In this document: positions 8,914 to 46,269 of the stretch, in pieces
Position numbering within the stretch: position 1 is the stretch's first letter
Layout: each line of letters opens with the position of its first letter
From: Escherichia phage FritzSarasin
Sequence record: MZ501069
Reading direction: 5' to 3' (one strand)
Length of the DNA: 51,777 nucleotides
Made by a program: the position numbers and the translations under genes
Notes under the pieces: model-generated
The model's database searches: none
Seen by the model: the letters and a program-made list of their open reading frames with translations, nothing else
Told to the model about the DNA's origin: nothing

Positions 8914-9349
8914 TAACTATAAGATCAGGGAATTTCACGGTGATATAAGCAGGTGGATTGATTCAGTAAGCAGCGGCCTTGTTGATTGCGTTGAAATGTT
9001 CGCGACAAACGTCCACGAGGATCTTGTAAATCGCTCGCCAGTTGATACGGGCCGATATAAAGCCAACTGGCAGATAACAGCAAACAAGCCGCCGCTATAT
9101 GCGCTCAACCAATACGATCGCGATGGTAGTAAAACCATTGCAGAAGGCAAGCGAGCAATATATGCAATCATGCGTGGCGGTGGCGCGGTGCGGTCAATCT
9201 ATTTTTCAAACATGCTCATTTACGCCAACGCGCTTGAATACGGTCATTCAAAACAAGCGCCGTCCGGCGTACTTGGAATCGTGGCGGTAAAGCTGCGATC
9301 TTATATGGCTAAGGCAATAAAGGATTCGAGGGCAAAAAATGCACTATGA
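8906..9349 (+). CDS. putative tail completion protein
   Basis: ATG 8906 preceded by AGGAGG 8891-8896; 147 aa; positional call. Confidence 0.4.
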   Translation: MADNYKIREFHGDISRWIDSVSSGLVDCVEMFATNVHEDLVNRSPVDTGRYKANWQITANKPPLYALNQYDRDGSKTIAEGKRAIYAIMRGGGAVRSIYFSNMLIYANALEYGHSKQAPSGVLGIVAVKLRSYMAKAIKDSRAKNAL

Positions 9350-9740
9350 TTTAATGTTGGCGGCAAGAAAGGCGCTGGCGGCTGAATATGAATCACGATT
9401 TAAGATAGCATATGAAAACGTTGATTTTGTGCCGCCTGGAGATGGTTCTATGTGGTTAAAATTTGACTACATGGAAGCAGACACGGATCGCATATCTCTT
9501 GATAGAAAATGTGTTTCTTATATCGGTTTGGTTCAGGTTGGAATTGTCATTCCTCCTGGCGGCGGCACTGATAAAGCGCGTTTGCTGGCTAAAGAGATTG
9601 CGAGATTTTTCTATGATGGTAGAATGATTGAAACTGGCTATATTAGCGAGGGGGCAAACGTCCACACATTACTAAAAAGTGAAACAGGTTGGTTATTGCC
9701 GATCCGTTTCAGTGTTAGGCTTGATACAAAGGAGGAATAA
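9339..9740 (+). CDS. putative tail terminator protein
   Basis: 133 aa immediately upstream of the major tail gene; positional call. Confidence 0.4.
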   Translation: MHYDLMLAARKALAAEYESRFKIAYENVDFVPPGDGSMWLKFDYMEADTDRISLDRKCVSYIGLVQVGIVIPPGGGTDKARLLAKEIARFFYDGRMIETGYISEGANVHTLLKSETGWLLPIRFSVRLDTKEE

Positions 9741-9742
9741 TC

Positions 9743-10405
9743 ATGCACTTGCCTAATGGTTCTCAAATTTTCATCGGCGTTAATATGGGTGAGCCTATTA
9801 GCGCTACTCAAATCAGCAATGCTGATGATCCTGTTTTTACGACTGCAAACACTCAAAGCATCAAAAAAGGCGCTTATGTTCTTATTGAAACATCTTCTTG
9901 GGGTAAACTTGTTAGTCGCGTGCTTCGAGTTAAGGAAGTTTCAGATAATGCAAGTGTTACTCTTGAAGGTGTTAGCACTAAAGATACAAACGTATTTCCA
10001 GAAGGAGAGAACACAGCAACTTTCCGAGAGGTGAAATCTTGGGTAGAGATTCCTTGCGTACAGGATCTTGCGCAGGACGGCGGCGAACAACAGTATTACA
10101 CTTATCAGTGTTTGGCTGATGACCAGGAGCAGCAGTTACCGACCTATAAGAGCGCCGTTTCTCTTACCTACACTTTCGCGCATGAATATGATAACCCGAT
10201 TTATCCGATCTTGCGCGAGGCTGAGGAATCCGGCGACGTAACCGCTTTGCGTATGTACGTTCCGAAAGCTAAAGAGATGCGTTGCTGGGCTGGCGTATTG
10301 TCATTTAATGACATTCCGCAAACCACTATGAACGAAATGGAAACTGTTTCCCTTTCCGTATCTCTGAAAGGTCGATTTACGTTCTTATCTTCCGACATCA
10401 ATTAA
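9743..10405 (+). CDS. putative major tail protein
   Basis: 220 aa; strong RBS AAGGAGG; immediately before the G/G-T chaperone pair and tape measure, as in lambda-like tails. Confidence 0.55.
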   Translation: MHLPNGSQIFIGVNMGEPISATQISNADDPVFTTANTQSIKKGAYVLIETSSWGKLVSRVLRVKEVSDNASVTLEGVSTKDTNVFPEGENTATFREVKSWVEIPCVQDLAQDGGEQQYYTYQCLADDQEQQLPTYKSAVSLTYTFAHEYDNPIYPILREAEESGDVTALRMYVPKAKEMRCWAGVLSFNDIPQTTMNEMETVSLSVSLKGRFTFLSSDIN

Positions 10406-10410
10406 AACAA

Positions 10411-10431
10411 GGGGCGTTGCGCCCCTTTTTT
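10411..10431 (+). terminator. rho-independent terminator
   Basis: GGGGCG-TTG-CGCCCC followed by TTTTTT. Confidence 0.65.
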
Positions 10432-10471
10432 CATTCCTGTAAAATCAATCTATCAAATAAATCAATTCCAC

Positions 10472-10490
10472 TTTTAACAAAAAGTGCTAT
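10472..10490 (-). promoter_or_regulatory. conserved motif copy, reverse orientation, abutting RBS of chaperone gene
   Basis: TTTTAACAAAAAGTGCTAT directly followed by AAGGAG and ATG 10505. Confidence 0.45.
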
Positions 10491-10504
10491 AAGGAGATCT
10501 TGAG

Positions 10505-10822
10505 ATGGCAAAGATGAAACTAACGTTAGGCCCACTGCCTGATTTTAAGCTACCTGTTTCTTTTGTGCTTCCAAATGGTGATGAGCAAGTTATTGTTTTT
10601 ACCGTGCGCCACAAGAAGGCAAGCGAGATTCACGAACGATACACGGCAGAAAAGCCGATGAGCGACGTAGAAATGATCACCTTCCTTGCTTCCGGTTGGG
10701 ATCTGGAAGATGAATTTAACGAGGAAAACGTTGCTAAATTGCTGGATTATTACCCTTCTGCGTCATTATCGCTGACTGGTCATTATATGAAAGCACTTGC
10801 GGGGCAGCGGGTAAAAAACTAA
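10505..10822 (+). CDS. tail assembly chaperone (lambda G-like)
   Basis: 105 aa immediately upstream of tape measure; ends just after a slippery heptamer. Confidence 0.7.
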   Translation: MAKMKLTLGPLPDFKLPVSFVLPNGDEQVIVFTVRHKKASEIHERYTAEKPMSDVEMITFLASGWDLEDEFNEENVAKLLDYYPSASLSLTGHYMKALAGQRVKN

Positions 10823-11139
10823 AGCGGGCGGTTTACCTGTTTTACCTCAAGCCGCCAACTGACGCACAATTAGAGGCCGTCGGCCTATCCCGTTCAGACT
10901 ACGAAGGGGAGGAGCCGCCGGAGGTAATTTTTGATGAATCAATGTTTCAATCTTGGGATCTGTTTTGCGCTATGCAGACGCAATGGAGATCGACTAGCGG
11001 CAGTGTGTATGGGTTCGACTATAACGTTTTGCCTATGCTTTTTGACATTTACAAGATTGAGGATCGGGAGATGGCGCTAAATGATTTGCGCATCATGGAA
11101 CAAAAGGCGCTAGAAATGATTCATTCAAACAAAACATAA
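10505..11139 (+). CDS. tail assembly chaperone G-T fusion (via -1 frameshift)
   Basis: G frame to 10819, then -1 frame to stop at 11139; about 212 aa fusion; same arrangement as lambda G/GT. Confidence 0.55.
10813..10819 (+). other. programmed -1 ribosomal frameshift site (A AAA AAC)
   Basis: Heptamer A_AAA_AAC in the G frame, 3 nt before the G stop; the -1 frame is open with no stop from 10819 to 11139. Confidence 0.6.
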
Positions 11140-11159
11140 GCGCCGCAAGGCGCTTTTTT
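11139..11159 (+). terminator. terminator-like hairpin
   Basis: AGCGCCGCAAGGCGCT followed by TTTTTT. Confidence 0.5.
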
Positions 11160-11178
11160 AATATCTGGAGGTTTTAAA

Positions 11179-13860
11179 ATGGCTGAGAAATACGCTGGCC
11201 TAACGCTAGGCGTTGACGTGTCGCAGGTCAACAATGCTGTTAAATCATTGCAGCAATTCAAGAAGGCAAACGACGACGCAAAAAAAAGCGTTAATGAATT
11301 TGTTGATTCTGAGGTTGTGGCGCGACAGCAAGCTAAACAGTTTGCCGAAGAACTGGCGCGCCAGAAAGCAGAGTTTAAGAAAATCCAGGAGTCAATTGAT
11401 CCCACAGCGTCAAAGATGGATAAGCTGCGAAAAGCAGCGACACAGCTTGATGCGCTATGGAAAAAAGGCGTTGTTCCTGATGAGACTTTTTTTGAGCTTG
11501 GGGCAATTCTTGAGACACAGCAAAACAAGCTGATCGCAACCAAAAAGGCGATGACAGAGGAAGGCCGCGCGGCGCTTGAGGAATCAAAGAACAAGGCGCG
11601 TGCAGCGGAAGAGGCTAAAAAATTCATCCAGGCTTTGCGTGAGCAGGAAGAAGCAGCCGGAAAAAGCAAGTCTGAATTGCTGGAAATGAAAGCGGCACAG
11701 CTTGGAGTTAGCCAGGAGGCGGCGCCTTACATCGCAAGACTGAAAGAGCAGGAAAAGCAGATTCAAAAACTTGGGATTTCTACAGGCCAATACAATCAAG
11801 CAATGAAGCTATTGCCAATGCAGATCACAGACGTGGTGACTTCACTTGCTTCTGGTATGCCTGTTTGGCTGGTCGCAATCCAGCAGGGCGGACAGATTAA
11901 GGATTCTTTTGGTGGCGCATCCAATGCTTTAAAAGCGTTGCTATCTTTCCTGAATCCGGTAAACGTGGCTTTTGGCTTGCTTTCCGGCACGCTGGCAATT
12001 GCTGCATATAATGCCTACAAAACACAGACAGAGTTTGAGGCAATTAAAAAAACCGTTCAGGAAACAACTGGCTTGACTGGTGATTTTGCCGAAAAGATTG
12101 CTACAGGAATCCAGGAGCTTTCCGACAAGACGGGAGAAAGCGCAGAAGATCTGGCAAAGGCTTACATCACCACGAAAGACGGCGCGAGCGAGGCGATTAA
12201 AAAACTGGTTGACGTTGGCATGACTTATGATGATGCAAAAAAGAAAGTCAACGAGTACAAAGGCGCGTCTAGCTTTGTCAGCTTGAATAACGAAATTGCA
12301 AACCACAAAAACAAAGTCCTTGAGTTGGGCGACTCGTGGTATGAAGTTTTGAAAGCGAAGCGTGATTACGCTTCCCCGTCCGGCGGCCTGTTAGGTAAAG
12401 AGCTTGGCTATGTTAATCCTATGCTTAAGTTTGCACTTAACACTTATGAAGACATTGGAAAGGTCGTAAAAGATGCGAATAAGGACATGGCTGAACGAGC
12501 GGAGCGAATCGACAAAGAAAACCTTGCATTGAACAGAGTGAGAGCAGCGCAGGAGGCTTTAAACAAAGCCATTGAGGATCAGAAGGGTGTGGCGCGTTCG
12601 GCTGATGAAGAACTGAAAAAGCGTGCGGCTGAAAACGTGGAGTTCAGACGCAAAGAGCTTGAGGAGATCAAGAAGCAGGAGCAGAAAAAGAAAGAGGCTA
12701 AAGGCGGAATAGTTCGCGGACCAACTGAGCAGCTTGATAAAGAGTTGTACGTTTTAAAAGCGCAACTGGAAACGCTTAAAGAGCATCGCACTGTTAACGA
12801 TGTTATTTCTCGCCAGCGTAAATCTTTATGGAGCATCGAAAAGCAGATCGAGATCCTAGAGGATGCGCAGAGCAAGCGTAAATTGACCGGAGCGGAACAG
12901 GCGCTACTAAACGAGCAAAAAGCCGTTTTGGAAATGGCAAGGCAAAAGGCTGAATTAGGGGATCAGATTGTTTTGCAGGAGCGCAAAAACAAGCTGGAGC
13001 AAGATAGCATTAAGTTTATCCGTGAAACGCAGGCGGCTATTGATGTGCTTGGCCTTAAGCAACTTGGCTACACTGAAAAGCAGATCGAGCGTGAGCTAGA
13101 GTTACGCAAGCTGCGCACCGACTACGAGGCGCAAGGAGGAAGCGTTAGCGATGAAGTTTTTCAGCAAATGGGGGCGAAACTTAAGCAGTATTATCAGACA
13201 CAGGATGAGGTTCAAGGCAACTGGTTGGCAGGAGCAAAAAACGCATGGGAGCTATTCGCGGAAGATGCAAACAATGCCTATGGCAATGTTCAGCAGATCG
13301 CAAGCGAGGCGTTAAACGGCCTTACAAACCAATTAGCGAATTTTATCGCTACTGGCAAGGCAAACTTTAAAGACTTCTCGACGGCTATCATCAAAATGAT
13401 TATTCAGATGATCACGAAAATGGTTGTCTTTAATGCGTTATCTGGCCTGATGGGTGGTCAAACCTGGACGATGGGGAGCTTGCTTAAGAACATTGGCGGA
13501 TTTGCTGGCGGTGGATACACTGGCGACGGCGGGAAGTATGAGCCAGCCGGAATTGTCCATAAAGGTGAATTTGTCATGACGAAGGAGGCGACGCAGCGTA
13601 TCGGGGTAGGCAACTTGTACCGCATGATGCGAGGCTATGCTAACGGCGGCGTTGTTGGTAGTTCCGGCTATACTGGCGGTGGCGCTGTCACTGGTGGAGC
13701 ACCTCAATTTAACATTGGTGGGATTGATGTTAGCATCAATAACGGCAGCGATCCGAAGGGCATCGAAACTGGCGTTAAGATGATCTTTACTGATATGATT
13801 AAACGTTCCTGTATGCAGGGCGGAGAGGTTTACGAATTTGTTATGAGCAAGCGAGGTTGA
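11179..13860 (+). CDS. tail tape measure protein
   Basis: 893 aa; long coiled-coil-rich region, hydrophobic segments, glycine-rich C-terminus; position after G/G-T. Confidence 0.9.
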   Translation: MAEKYAGLTLGVDVSQVNNAVKSLQQFKKANDDAKKSVNEFVDSEVVARQQAKQFAEELARQKAEFKKIQESIDPTASKMDKLRKAATQLDALWKKGVVPDETFFELGAILETQQNKLIATKKAMTEEGRAALEESKNKARAAEEAKKFIQALREQEEAAGKSKSELLEMKAAQLGVSQEAAPYIARLKEQEKQIQKLGISTGQYNQAMKLLPMQITDVVTSLASGMPVWLVAIQQGGQIKDSFGGASNALKALLSFLNPVNVAFGLLSGTLAIAAYNAYKTQTEFEAIKKTVQETTGLTGDFAEKIATGIQELSDKTGESAEDLAKAYITTKDGASEAIKKLVDVGMTYDDAKKKVNEYKGASSFVSLNNEIANHKNKVLELGDSWYEVLKAKRDYASPSGGLLGKELGYVNPMLKFALNTYEDIGKVVKDANKDMAERAERIDKENLALNRVRAAQEALNKAIEDQKGVARSADEELKKRAAENVEFRRKELEEIKKQEQKKKEAKGGIVRGPTEQLDKELYVLKAQLETLKEHRTVNDVISRQRKSLWSIEKQIEILEDAQSKRKLTGAEQALLNEQKAVLEMARQKAELGDQIVLQERKNKLEQDSIKFIRETQAAIDVLGLKQLGYTEKQIERELELRKLRTDYEAQGGSVSDEVFQQMGAKLKQYYQTQDEVQGNWLAGAKNAWELFAEDANNAYGNVQQIASEALNGLTNQLANFIATGKANFKDFSTAIIKMIIQMITKMVVFNALSGLMGGQTWTMGSLLKNIGGFAGGGYTGDGGKYEPAGIVHKGEFVMTKEATQRIGVGNLYRMMRGYANGGVVGSSGYTGGGAVTGGAPQFNIGGIDVSINNGSDPKGIETGVKMIFTDMIKRSCMQGGEVYEFVMSKRG

Positions 13861-45507: not shown

Positions 45508-45715
45508 TCGCGTCAAGCACAGGTTTACTGATAACCACGGCGACGCGATTGATGTATACAAGTTCGGCGATCGCGTGTTTATTGATGGCACGTTTGAAGG
45601 TGGGCGCAGGCCGGATTTTAGGTCGATACTTACCGTTGACCAAGTGCGCAAGCTGGCAGATAAGTTAAATGATCTGGCAGATGAAATAGAATACAAGCAA
45701 ATCCATTTTAATTGA
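45494..45715 (+). CDS. hypothetical small protein
   Basis: 73 aa; overlaps upstream gene. Confidence 0.5.
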   Translation: MKTNNRVKHRFTDNHGDAIDVYKFGDRVFIDGTFEGGRRPDFRSILTVDQVRKLADKLNDLADEIEYKQIHFN

Positions 45716-45726
45716 TAGGTTTGATA

Positions 45727-46269
45727 ATGAAAAAATACACTTTCGAACTGTGGGGCAAAAAGTACGAATTAATCACCAGCAAGCCGATTGTTATCGTTGA
45801 CCTGGACGGCACACTATCGGACGGATCGCATCGTTTGCATTTGCTGCCAACTGAAAACTTGCACCTTACGGAATCGTGGCGCGAGTTTAACAGGGCCGCC
45901 GCCGGAGATTCACCTATTAAAAGCACTATCGCGGTTATTAACGGTTTATGGGTGTCGGGATTTGCCATCGTCATCTTGACCGGACGCAGCGACGAGGTTC
46001 GCTATGAAACCTGCAAATGGTTGAATGAGAACGGCGTGAAGTTTGACGAAATCATCATGCGCCGCCAGGAGGACAACCGAAAGGATACGGTTATCAAAGA
46101 AGAAGCCTTGCGCGCTATTGGCCTGGACAACATTGTTTGCGCCTTTGACGATTCGCCGAACGTGGTTAAGCACTTCCGCAGCCTGGCAATCACAACCTAT
46201 CAGGTCACGGAATACGACAAGCCGCACGCTCACCTGCAATCTCACGGCGTGGAGGAGTTGCAGAAATGA
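45727..46269 (+). CDS. HAD-superfamily phosphatase (nucleotidase / polynucleotide 3-phosphatase-like)
   Basis: About 180 aa; HAD motif I IVIVDLDGTLSDG, motif II ILTGR, C-terminal FDDS. Confidence 0.6.
   Translation: MKKYTFELWGKKYELITSKPIVIVDLDGTLSDGSHRLHLLPTENLHLTESWREFNRAAAGDSPIKSTIAVINGLWVSGFAIVILTGRSDEVRYETCKWLNENGVKFDEIIMRRQEDNRKDTVIKEEALRAIGLDNIVCAFDDSPNVVKHFRSLAITTYQVTEYDKPHAHLQSHGVEELQK

What the first reader, a model, noticed from the sequence alone, without database searches (positions are those of the whole stretch)
10505..11139. Programmed -1 frameshift producing a G-T tail chaperone fusion
The slippery heptamer A_AAA_AAC (10813-10819) sits 3 nt before the chaperone stop codon. 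I translated the -1 frame by hand and it is open from 10819 to the stop at 11139, passing through the 65-aa track ORF 10942-11139. This matches the conserved G/GT frameshift of lambda-like tail chaperones located just before the tape measure gene.
Basis: partly seen in the sequence, partly recalled or inferred. Interest (0 to 1): 0.5.

Follow-up and report, generated by a model that had tools for sequence, protein, structure and literature searches.

The report
Tail chaperone G/GT −1 frameshift site
This T1-like coliphage has the standard tail-chaperone gene pair in which a few ribosomes slip back one base at A_AAA_AAC to make a longer fusion protein; the signal is real and well conserved, but it is an ordinary feature already described for this phage family.

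Summary
The window is a Warwickvirus (Drexlerviridae, T1-like coliphage). Between the tail-tube gene and the tape-measure gene lies a 105-aa chaperone ORF (10505-10822, Pfam Phage_TAC_4). Its last two sense codons, AAA AAC, form with the preceding A the heptamer A_AAA_AAC (10813-10819), directly followed by the TAA stop. The −1 frame is open from 10738 to 11139 and encodes a DUF1799 domain. A slip would give a 211-aa G-T fusion.

The evidence is comparative, not experimental. The G-then-T arrangement recurs in about 1,100 phage records. In sampled relatives T is in the −1 frame. A canonical heptamer sits at or near the G stop even where its sequence differs (G_GGA_AAC, A_AAG_GGT). The 40 codons between the slip site and the first start codon (ATG 10942) are under strong purifying selection in the −1 frame and contain no ATG/GTG/TTG. 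The predicted fusion matches a 213-position PHROG profile end to end. A hairpin 7 nt downstream is plausible but has no covariation support.

The frameshift is already annotated or described for other T1-like phages (Shelby, Skenny, Solomon, Stevie), although Warwickvirus records and the T1 RefSeq record list two separate ORFs. There is no sequence similarity to lambda G or T. Verdict: real, ordinary, already known; low interest.

The parts
10409..10435 (+). Terminator-like hairpin plus T-run after the tail tube gene, upstream of the chaperone gene
   Evidence: 8-bp stem with 6 GC pairs, followed by TTTTTCATT. T1 annotates a terminator at the equivalent place.
10472..10490 (-). Copy of the T1-type dispersed repeat ATAGCACTTTTTGTTAAAA, just upstream of the G ribosome binding site
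   Evidence: 21 copies in the window against 0.11 expected. The repeat is described for T1 and Stevie (PMC4319613). Whether it bears on G/GT expression is unknown.
10492..10497 (+). Shine-Dalgarno AAGGAG, 7 nt before the G start codon
   Evidence: Read from the sequence.
10505..10822 (+). Gene G: tail assembly (tape measure) chaperone, 105 aa, made by standard translation
   Evidence: Pfam Phage_TAC_4 E 5.2e-31 over residues 1-105; phrog_569 and phrog_17368.
10813..10819 (+). Slippery heptamer A_AAA_AAC (0-frame codons AAA AAC), the proposed -1 shift site
   Evidence: Identical in the sampled Drexlerviridae including T1; G_GGA_AAC or A_AAG_GGT at the same place in other relatives.
10820..10822 (+). 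0-frame TAA stop directly abutting the heptamer
   Evidence: A stop directly after the heptamer is conserved in nearly all relatives sampled.
10827..10856 (+). Candidate stimulatory hairpin GGCGGUUU / AAGCCGCC: 8 bp, 14-nt loop, 7 nt after the heptamer, -9.8 kcal/mol
   Evidence: By my count, a hairpin starts 6-8 nt downstream in 13 of 20 distinct relatives (mean z -1.8). There is no covariation support, and predicts no such nearby hairpin in some relatives.
10819..11139 (+). T segment in the -1 frame (106 codons plus stop), DUF1799 domain; C 10819 is read twice. G 1-105 plus T 1-106 gives a 211-aa GT fusion
   Evidence: open frame; Pfam DUF1799 E 1.5e-12, phrog_680 E 1.8e-33, fusion against phrog_17368 E 2.5e-99 over 1-209 of 211; pN 0.06-0.24 against pS 0.6-0.9 in codons 2-41; AlphaFold pLDDT 92 including residues 1-41.
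10942..11139 (+). 65-aa ORF often annotated separately in GenBank; it is the C-terminal part of the T segment and probably not an independent gene
   Evidence: First ATG/GTG/TTG of the -1 frame. The only SD-like GGAGG (10920-10924) ends 17 nt upstream. This Met is Thr in Shelby.
11138..11162 (+). Terminator-like hairpin plus T-run immediately after the T stop, before the tape measure gene
   Evidence: equivalents are annotated in T1 and Shelby.
9743..10405 (+). Tail tube (major tail) protein gene, upstream neighbour
   Evidence: Pfam Phage_tail_3 E 8e-63.
11179..13860 (+). Tape measure protein gene, downstream neighbour
   Evidence: Pfam TMP_2 E 2e-36 and Tape_meas_lam_C E 2e-22.

Best explanation
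This is a programmed -1 ribosomal frameshift in the tail assembly chaperone gene of a T1-like siphophage (Warwickvirus).

Most ribosomes translate 10505-10822 and stop at TAA, giving the 105-aa chaperone G. A small fraction slip back one base on A_AAA_AAC (10813-10819): tRNA-Lys moves from AAA to AAA and tRNA-Asn from AAC to AAA. They then continue in the -1 frame to 11139 and make a 211-aa G-T fusion.

The slip is probably helped by the 0-frame stop that abuts the heptamer and by a hairpin 7 nt downstream.

By analogy with lambda gpG/gpGT, the G part would coat the tape measure protein and the T domain would recruit the tail tube protein. A low GT:G ratio would be set by this low-efficiency heptamer.

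What is shown here: the sequence anatomy, the conservation, the coding selection in the -1 frame and the family membership. What is inferred: that the fusion protein is made, how efficiently, the role of the stop and hairpin, and the binding partners.
For: **Anatomy**
- The heptamer is in the correct register at the stop, and the -1 frame is open from 10738 to 11139.

**Context**
- The gene order is terminator-tube-G/T-TMP-M-L-K-I.

**Family**
- G is Phage_TAC_4 and the T part is DUF1799, with the match starting at fusion residue 128. That is 19 codons upstream of the ATG.
- The predicted fusion aligns end to end with the 213-position phrog_17368 at E 2.5e-99.

**No independent start**
- There is no ATG/GTG/TTG in the -1 frame between 10738 and 10941.
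- In the 40 codons between the shift site and the ATG, pN is 0.06-0.24 against pS 0.6-0.9, so dN/dS is about 0.04-0.14.
- These residues fold with the rest of the domain at pLDDT 84-93.

**Conservation**
- 1,148 phage records match the fusion, and 1,095 of them cover at least 80% of it. All 60 listed hits are two tblastn pieces except the weakest one.
- In the sampled loci T is always -1 relative to G, apart from two records with homopolymer sequencing errors.
- The heptamer is A_AAA_AAC in the sampled Drexlerviridae including T1, in Dhillonvirus and in PHB10.
- It is G_GGA_AAC in Pseudomonas phage Medea1, Ralstonia phage YO187_2 and three metagenome relatives, and A_AAG_GGT in Jahat.

**Natural fusions**
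- No natural in-frame G-T fusion appears among the best 150 of 318 T-domain homologues in 1.84 billion representatives. Apart from one false positive, all are ORFs of 50-145 aa starting at varied positions.

**Prior art**
- Shelby carries a joined CDS labelled 'tail assembly chaperone frameshift product'.
- The frameshift is mentioned for Skenny, Solomon and Stevie.
- BFVD fold hits fall in 210-277-aa 'tape measure chaperone' proteins of Solomon, Scapp and Shivani.

**Literature**
- A_AAA_AAC is a low-efficiency but genuinely used -1 site in E. coli, in IS1 (PMC4066793).
- The G-T frameshift is widely conserved, with a ratio of about 30:1 in lambda (PMC5009743).
Against: - There is no protein-level evidence for this phage or, in what I read, for any T1-like phage. 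Chaperones are absent from virions, so virion proteomes do not help.
- A_AAA_AAC is rated inefficient in E. coli.
- The downstream hairpin in the window is weak: -9.8 kcal/mol, z -1.0. It shows no covariation in the Drexlerviridae alignment.
- predicts no hairpin at that spacing in some relatives (for example L026, L005, L031).
- A few relatives (Shelby, phiEB49, Chambers_MM6) have only a tetramer-type site (A_AAA_G or A_AAG) rather than a canonical heptamer.
- The Met at 10942 is conserved in all but one of the Drexlerviridae sampled, so additional internal initiation is not excluded.
Confidence: 0.9

Rival explanations
1. The downstream ORF is an independent small gene: a 65-aa protein initiated at ATG 10942, as many GenBank records annotate it. 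No fusion is made.
For: - Warwickvirus records annotate 10942-11139 as a separate CDS, and T1 RefSeq does likewise.
- The Met at this position is conserved in 15 of 16 distinct Drexlerviridae sequences.
Against: - The only SD-like element (GGAGG, 10920-10924) ends 17 nt before the ATG.
- The 40 codons upstream of the ATG are under strong purifying selection in the -1 frame yet contain no start codon.
- The Pfam, PHROG and structural domains all begin well upstream of the Met.
- Shelby has Thr at this position.
- Called starts in relatives are scattered, and some are internal TTG or ATG codons.
Confidence: 0.04
2. The frame change occurs at the RNA level. RNA polymerase slips on the A6 run and drops or adds an A, giving a minority mRNA in which G and T are in frame.
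For: The site is a homopolymeric A6 run, and A7 in Dhillonvirus. Transcriptional slippage on A runs is known in bacteria (reviewed in PMC5009743).
Against: - Six A's is shorter than the runs I recall as supporting efficient slippage in E. coli (about 8-9 or more; from my own knowledge, not checked here).
- Relatives with the same gene arrangement use G_GGA_AAC or A_AAG_GGT, which contain no long homopolymer but are canonical ribosomal slip sites.
- The strict codon register of the heptamer matters only for ribosomal slippage.
Confidence: 0.03
3. The juxtaposition is chance: the heptamer and the open -1 frame have no function, and the -1 ORF is not expressed upstream of 10942.
For: AAAAAAC is not over-represented in the window: 25 found against 23 expected.
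Against: - Position, register and frame relation are conserved across about 1,100 phage records down to about 27% protein identity, with heptamer replacement.
- dN/dS is far below 1 upstream of the ATG.
Confidence: 0.01

Closest known systems
Phage lambda gpG / gpGT tail assembly chaperones (Levin, Hendrix & Casjens 1993; Xu, Hendrix & Duda 2004, 2013, 2014)
   Same: - The position is the same, between the tube gene (V) and the tape measure gene (H).
- There are two overlapping ORFs with the second in the -1 frame, and a canonical slippery heptamer near the end of G.
- A low-level fusion product is expected.
- The rest of the tail module is lambda-like, with M, L, K and I homologues (PMC5009743).
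   Different: - There is no detectable sequence similarity (BLASTP).
- The Pfam families differ: Phage_TAC_4 and DUF1799 here, Phage_TAC_2 and Phage_tail_T in lambda.
- The heptamer is A_AAA_AAC abutting the stop, not G_GGA_AAG.
- G here is shorter: 105 aa against 140.
Frameshifted tape measure chaperones annotated in other T1-like phages (Drexlerviridae): Klebsiella phages Shelby, Skenny and Solomon, Citrobacter phage Stevie
   Same: - The proteins are homologous: 45-51% identity to Shelby, and 52% identity with TM 0.81 to the C-terminal half of the Solomon 210-aa product.
- The locus is the same, with the same -1 relation and a join at the same place.
- It is annotated as a joined CDS and described in PMC6763657, PMC8407766 and PMC4319613.
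   Different: - Shelby lacks the canonical heptamer; it reads GCA AAA GTT TAA, an A_AAA_G-type site.
- In Warwickvirus records and T1 RefSeq the fusion is not annotated. The two ORFs are listed separately, often under the name 'tail length tape measure protein'.
IS1 insA-insB' -1 frameshift (A6C motif) in E. coli
   Same: It has the identical heptamer A_AAA_AAC, decoded by the same host ribosomes. The efficiency is low and no stimulator has been established (PMC4066793).
   Different: The proteins are unrelated (a transposase). The IS1 site is not reported to abut the 0-frame stop; that point is from my own knowledge and was not checked here.
E. coli dnaX gamma/tau frameshift (A_AAA_AAG with upstream SD and downstream hairpin)
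   Same: It is a -1 slip on an A-rich heptamer in E. coli with a downstream hairpin at a similar spacing.
   Different: - dnaX uses the highly efficient AAG A-site codon and a strong SD-like stimulator.
- I saw no conserved SD-like element upstream here. The Gly codon is GGG, GGT or GGA, varying among relatives.
- The expected efficiency here is low.

Membership tests
G/GT-type tail assembly chaperone with conserved programmed frameshift (Xu, Hendrix & Duda 2004) | The gene pair lies between the major tail (tube) gene and the tape measure gene | tested here: met
   Tube 9743-10405 (Phage_tail_3) and TMP 11179-13860 (TMP_2, Tape_meas_lam_C).
G/GT-type tail assembly chaperone with conserved programmed frameshift (Xu, Hendrix & Duda 2004) | Two overlapping ORFs, the second in a shifted frame (-1) and lacking its own start at the overlap | tested here: met
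   The -1 frame is open 10738-11139 and overlaps G by 85 nt. The first ATG/GTG/TTG is at 10942.
G/GT-type tail assembly chaperone with conserved programmed frameshift (Xu, Hendrix & Duda 2004) | Slippery sequence X_XXY_YYZ in the 0-frame register within the overlap | tested here: met
   A_AAA_AAC at 10813-10819, with codons AAA and AAC.
G/GT-type tail assembly chaperone with conserved programmed frameshift (Xu, Hendrix & Duda 2004) | Arrangement and slip site conserved in diverged relatives | tested here: met
   1,095 records match at least 80% of the fusion. The heptamer is conserved or replaced by another canonical heptamer. Three sampled relatives have only tetramer-type sites.
G/GT-type tail assembly chaperone with conserved programmed frameshift (Xu, Hendrix & Duda 2004) | The shifted-frame segment evolves as protein-coding sequence right from the shift site | tested here: met
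   pN 0.06-0.24 against pS 0.6-0.9 in codons 2-41. Homology and confident fold cover these residues.
G/GT-type tail assembly chaperone with conserved programmed frameshift (Xu, Hendrix & Duda 2004) | The fusion protein is actually produced, at a low fixed ratio to G | not testable with these tools
   This needs mass spectrometry, a western blot or a reporter assay.
G/GT-type tail assembly chaperone with conserved programmed frameshift (Xu, Hendrix & Duda 2004) | G binds the tape measure protein, T binds the tube protein, and both are absent from virions | not testable with these tools
   Inferred only by analogy with lambda (PMC5009743).
Lambda gpG and gpT sequence families (Pfam Phage_TAC_2 PF06894, Phage_tail_T PF06223) | Significant sequence or profile match to these families | tested here: not met
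   There is no Pfam hit to either family at E up to 1. BLASTP against lambda G gives no alignment, and against lambda T gives E 0.97. Lambda's own proteins hit these families.
Pfam Phage_TAC_4 (PF08748) tail assembly chaperone | Score above the gathering threshold over the full domain | tested here: met
   107.9 bits against a cut-off of 21.1, residues 1-105 on profile positions 1-124.
Pfam DUF1799 (PF08809) | Score above the gathering threshold | tested here: met
   48 bits against a cut-off of 26, T residues 23-101 on profile positions 3-80.
-1 PRF cassette with a downstream RNA stimulator | A stable structure 5-9 nt downstream of the heptamer, supported by covariation | tested here: inconclusive
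   The window has an 8-bp hairpin 7 nt downstream, -9.8 kcal/mol. By my count 13 of 20 relatives have a hairpin at 6-8 nt, mean z -1.8. There is no covariation above shuffles, and some relatives show no such hairpin.

The most novel reading that the evidence does not exclude
The strictly conserved trio may form a family-specific frameshift cassette. The trio is a low-efficiency heptamer ending in AAC, a 0-frame stop codon directly abutting it, and a hairpin built from the Arg-Ala-Val and Lys-Pro-Pro codons of the T domain. In this reading, slow termination at the abutting stop, not only the RNA structure, sets the GT:G ratio. The N-terminal residues of the T domain would then be partly constrained by that RNA role. 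The evidence does not exclude this, but it would refine known -1 PRF biology and would not be a new kind of system.
Probability: 0.3. Interest if true: 0.3.

Novelty: already known. Interest (0 to 1): 0.12.

Why it matters
The practical value is for annotation. In Warwickvirus records and in the T1 RefSeq entry, the chaperone and its frameshift extension are listed as two separate ORFs. They are often mislabelled 'tail length tape measure protein', and the 40 codons between the slip site and the first ATG are left unannotated. A joined CDS (10505..10819, 10819..11139) would be the correct description. Biologically it adds one more consistent instance of the conserved G/GT frameshift. It also gives a small comparative data set in which the heptamer changes identity but not position.

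Tried and rejected
1. **Hairpin covariation.** I tested the downstream hairpin on a 17-sequence Drexlerviridae alignment. 79% of cells were paired, but covariation was no better than shuffles. The hairpin therefore remains only a candidate. The 88-nt region is not unusually stable (z -0.54).

2. **Upstream SD-like stimulator, as in dnaX.** The G-rich stretch at 10801-10811 comes from the Gly and Arg codons and varies among relatives (GGG, GGT, GGA). It is not supported.

3. **Natural in-frame G-T fusions ('Rosetta stone').** None appears among the best 150 of 318 hits. The one long hit, P0041 (2,059 aa, 10 stretches), is an acidic repeat protein and a compositional false positive.

4. **Word-indexed protein search with the fusion.** It returned only three T-part ORFs and was uninformative.

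5. **Submitting the fusion sequence to the structure and representative searches.** Only the T part was modelled.

6. **Solved structures.** There is no sequence match and no fold match.

7. **Two relatives that seemed to have T in the +1 frame (L014, L030).** Both carry several homopolymer deletions, including A6 to A5 at the slip site. These are sequencing errors, not a different mechanism.

8. **Other in-frame heptamers with long -1 extensions in the window.** Those I examined lie in short ORFs inside a larger gene in another frame, for example 11213-11533 and 45708-45974.

Full report
**What the window is.** A 2.2-kb stretch around the finding is 97-99% identical to many Escherichia phages: vB_Eco-B1.2, tiwna, tunus, PeterMerian, SECphi27 and others. 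The records I opened are classified as Drexlerviridae; Tempevirinae; Warwickvirus, that is, T1-like virulent siphophages. Pfam assigns the neighbouring ORFs as follows:
- tail terminator, 9339-9740;
- tail tube protein, 9743-10405 (Phage_tail_3);
- tape measure protein, 11179-13860 (TMP_2 plus Tape_meas_lam_C);
- homologues of lambda M, L, K and I after that.

The finding therefore sits exactly where lambda has G and T.

**Checking the observation.**
- The ORF 10505-10822 encodes 105 aa ending ...AGQRVKN*.
- Reading the sequence, the last codons are GTA AAA AAC TAA. A_AAA_AAC occupies 10813-10819 in the X_XXY_YYZ register and is followed directly by the stop at 10820-10822.
- The -1 frame is open from 10738 to the stop at 11137-11139, and it contains the 65-aa ORF 10942-11139.
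- A slip gives a 211-aa fusion: G 1-105 plus 106 residues beginning LKRAVYLFYLKPP.
- AAAAAAC as a bare string is not unusual: 25 copies against about 23 expected. The motif alone is not evidence.
- In a scan of all ORFs of at least 80 aa on both strands, this heptamer is the only one among the 12 with the longest -1 extensions that lies directly at a 0-frame stop. Every listed heptamer with a longer -1 extension is in a short ORF of 88-115 aa, and the ones I examined lie inside a larger gene in another frame.

**What the two parts are.**
- G matches Pfam Phage_TAC_4, 'Phage tail assembly chaperone', over its whole length (E 5e-31).
- The -1 segment matches DUF1799 (E 1.5e-12). That match starts at fusion residue 128, which is 19 codons upstream of the ATG at 10942.
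- In PHROGs the T segment matches phrog_680 from its ninth residue.
- The hypothetical fusion matches the 213-position profile phrog_17368 from end to end: residues 1-209 on positions 1-211, E 2.5e-99. Fusion proteins joined at this same place are therefore already deposited.
- There is no similarity to lambda gpG or gpT, which belong to Phage_TAC_2 and Phage_tail_T. The resemblance to lambda is positional and mechanistic, as expected for this system (PMC5009743).

**Is the -1 segment translated from the shift site?**
- There is no ATG, GTG or TTG in the -1 frame between 10738 and 10941.
- Even so, the 40 codons between the shift site and ATG 10942 evolve like coding sequence in that frame. 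Against 15 distinct Drexlerviridae relatives pN is 0.06-0.24 (up to 0.39 for Shelby) while pS is 0.6-0.9. Variable columns fall mainly at third positions (23, 22 and 40 for positions 1, 2 and 3).
- The only SD-like sequence before ATG 10942 (GGAGG, 10920-10924) ends 17 nt upstream.
- That Met is Thr in phage Shelby.
- An AlphaFold model of the T segment, built on an alignment of 42 homologues, is confident (pLDDT 92, pTM 0.79). It includes residues 1-41, which form three helices packed with the rest of the domain. A 65-aa product would lack them.

**Comparative evidence for the slip site.**
- tblastn of the fusion finds 1,148 phage records, 1,095 of them covering at least 80% of it. All 60 listed hits are in two pieces except the weakest one, which fits G and T lying in different frames. 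Identity goes down to about 27% (Pseudomonas, Ralstonia, Xanthomonas phages).
- In the loci I fetched, T is in the -1 frame in every case except two records. Those two carry several homopolymer deletions, including A6 to A5 at this very site, and are sequencing errors.
- The heptamer at the G stop is:
  - A_AAA_AAC in the sampled Drexlerviridae including T1, in Dhillonvirus phages and in PHB10;
  - G_GGA_AAC in Pseudomonas phage Medea1, Ralstonia phage YO187_2 and an IMG/VR contig;
  - A_AAG_GGT in phage Jahat.
- Three relatives (Shelby, phiEB49, Chambers_MM6) have only A_AAA_G or A_AAG tetramer-type sites.
- I picked four more distant metagenome relatives through their T-domain ORFs. Three have G_GGA_AAC plus stop, and one has A_AAA_AAC three codons before the stop. 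The 'Met' starts called for their T ORFs are internal TTG or ATG codons of the continuous -1 frame.
- The heptamer changing sequence while keeping its position, register and slipperiness is the strongest argument that the site functions. It also argues for ribosomal slippage over transcriptional slippage, because G_GGA_AAC and A_AAG_GGT have no long homopolymer.

**No natural fusions.** A full phmmer scan of 1.84 billion representatives with the T segment gave 318 hits. The best 150 are all ORFs of 50-145 aa whose starts fall at many different positions of the domain. The one exception, a 2,059-aa acidic repeat protein, is a compositional false positive. The T domain is thus essentially never encoded in frame with G, nor with a conserved start of its own.

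**Possible stimulators.**
- Seven nucleotides after the heptamer the window can form an 8-bp hairpin, GGCGGUUU-(14 nt)-AAGCCGCC, at 10827-10856, with -9.8 kcal/mol.
- In one search I count a hairpin starting 6-8 nt downstream in 13 of 20 distinct relatives. These include non-alignable relatives with different stems (Medea1, L042). The mean z-score against dinucleotide shuffles is -1.8.
- On the Drexlerviridae alignment there is no covariation beyond shuffles.
- In some relatives (for example L026, L005, L031) predicts no hairpin at that spacing. From the alignment, L026 differs from the window in the 5' arm (CGC GCC GUC for CGG GCG GUU) with no matching change in the 3' arm.
- The arms are the codons for conserved Arg-Ala-Val and Lys-Pro-Pro, so protein constraint could explain the pairing. 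I rate the hairpin as plausible but unproven.
- The abutting stop codon is much more consistently conserved and may contribute a pause. That is inference.
- I saw no conserved SD-like element upstream.

**Expected efficiency.** In E. coli, A_AAA_AAC is classed as a low-efficiency heptamer, though above 0.1% without stimulators. It is nevertheless the site used by IS1 (PMC4066793). Low efficiency fits the low GT:G ratio needed in lambda, about 1:30 (PMC5009743).

**Prior knowledge.**
- Klebsiella phage Shelby (Drexlerviridae, Webervirus) carries a joined CDS labelled 'tail assembly chaperone frameshift product' at the homologous locus.
- The announcements for Skenny, Solomon and the T1-like Citrobacter phage Stevie mention the conserved frameshift in the tape measure chaperones.
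- Fold search of the T model in BFVD returns 210-277-aa 'tape measure chaperone' proteins of Solomon, Scapp and Shivani. Nothing is found in the PDB by sequence or fold.
- By contrast, the Warwickvirus records and T1 RefSeq list two separate ORFs and no join.

**Verdict.** The feature is a genuine, well-conserved G/GT-type -1 programmed frameshift signal, but it is a textbook feature already recognised in this phage family. What remains unshown is the protein product itself, the efficiency, and the roles of the stop codon and the hairpin. Confidence that a GT fusion is made by -1 ribosomal frameshifting at 10813-10819 is about 0.9. Interest is low.

Noticed in passing
window 10472-10490 (- strand), plus 20 other sites, e.g. 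2093, 6718, 28300, 30789, 43523, 49652: The dispersed T1-type repeat ATAGCAYKWWTTGYTAAAA occurs 21 times in the window against 0.11 expected. One copy lies between the terminator after the tube gene and the G ribosome binding site. The repeat is known from T1 and Stevie, and its function is unknown (PMC4319613).
   Followed up: partly
window 10409-10435 and 11138-11162: Terminator-like hairpins with T-runs bracket the G/GT gene pair. The second begins within the T stop codon. Equivalent terminators are annotated in T1 and Shelby. They may tune transcription of the chaperone relative to the tube and tape measure genes.
   Followed up: partly
PHROG families 17368, 569 and 680; records L002 (MikeNSara) and L032 (T1 RefSeq): The PHROG families that hold the chaperone G, the GT fusion and the T part are labelled 'tail length tape measure protein'. 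Records that use these labels therefore show three consecutive 'tape measure' genes. This looks like a propagated mis-annotation.
   Followed up: partly
L014 1800-2100 (IMGVR_UViG_2974632794, a 53,145-bp contig, the same length as the Shigella phage 2019SD1 record) and L030 1500-2100: Both have single-base deletions in several homopolymers (A6 to A5 at the slip site, T5 to T4, GG to G) relative to near-identical phages. These are sequencing or assembly errors that break the G and T frames.
   Followed up: yes
phage records such as MG065670.1 (Campylobacter phage A121): 21 records named 'Campylobacter phage' carry this T1-like chaperone pair at about 75% protein identity to the coliphage. The host labels look doubtful for what appear to be enterobacterial T1-like phages.
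   Followed up: no
P0041 (2,059 aa, metagenome protein): This protein hit the T segment in 10 stretches. It is a highly acidic tandem-repeat surface-type protein, and the match is compositional (EGEEPPE-like stretches), not homology.
   Followed up: yes
L004 (Shelby) 916-927; L033 (phiEB49) 1101-1115; L037 (Chambers_MM6) 1167-1181: These relatives lack a canonical heptamer at the G stop and have only A_AAA_G or A_AAG tetramer-type sites (GCA AAA GTT TAA, GCA AAG GTC TAA, CAA AAG CAC TAA). They may rely on single-tRNA P-site slippage.
   Followed up: partly
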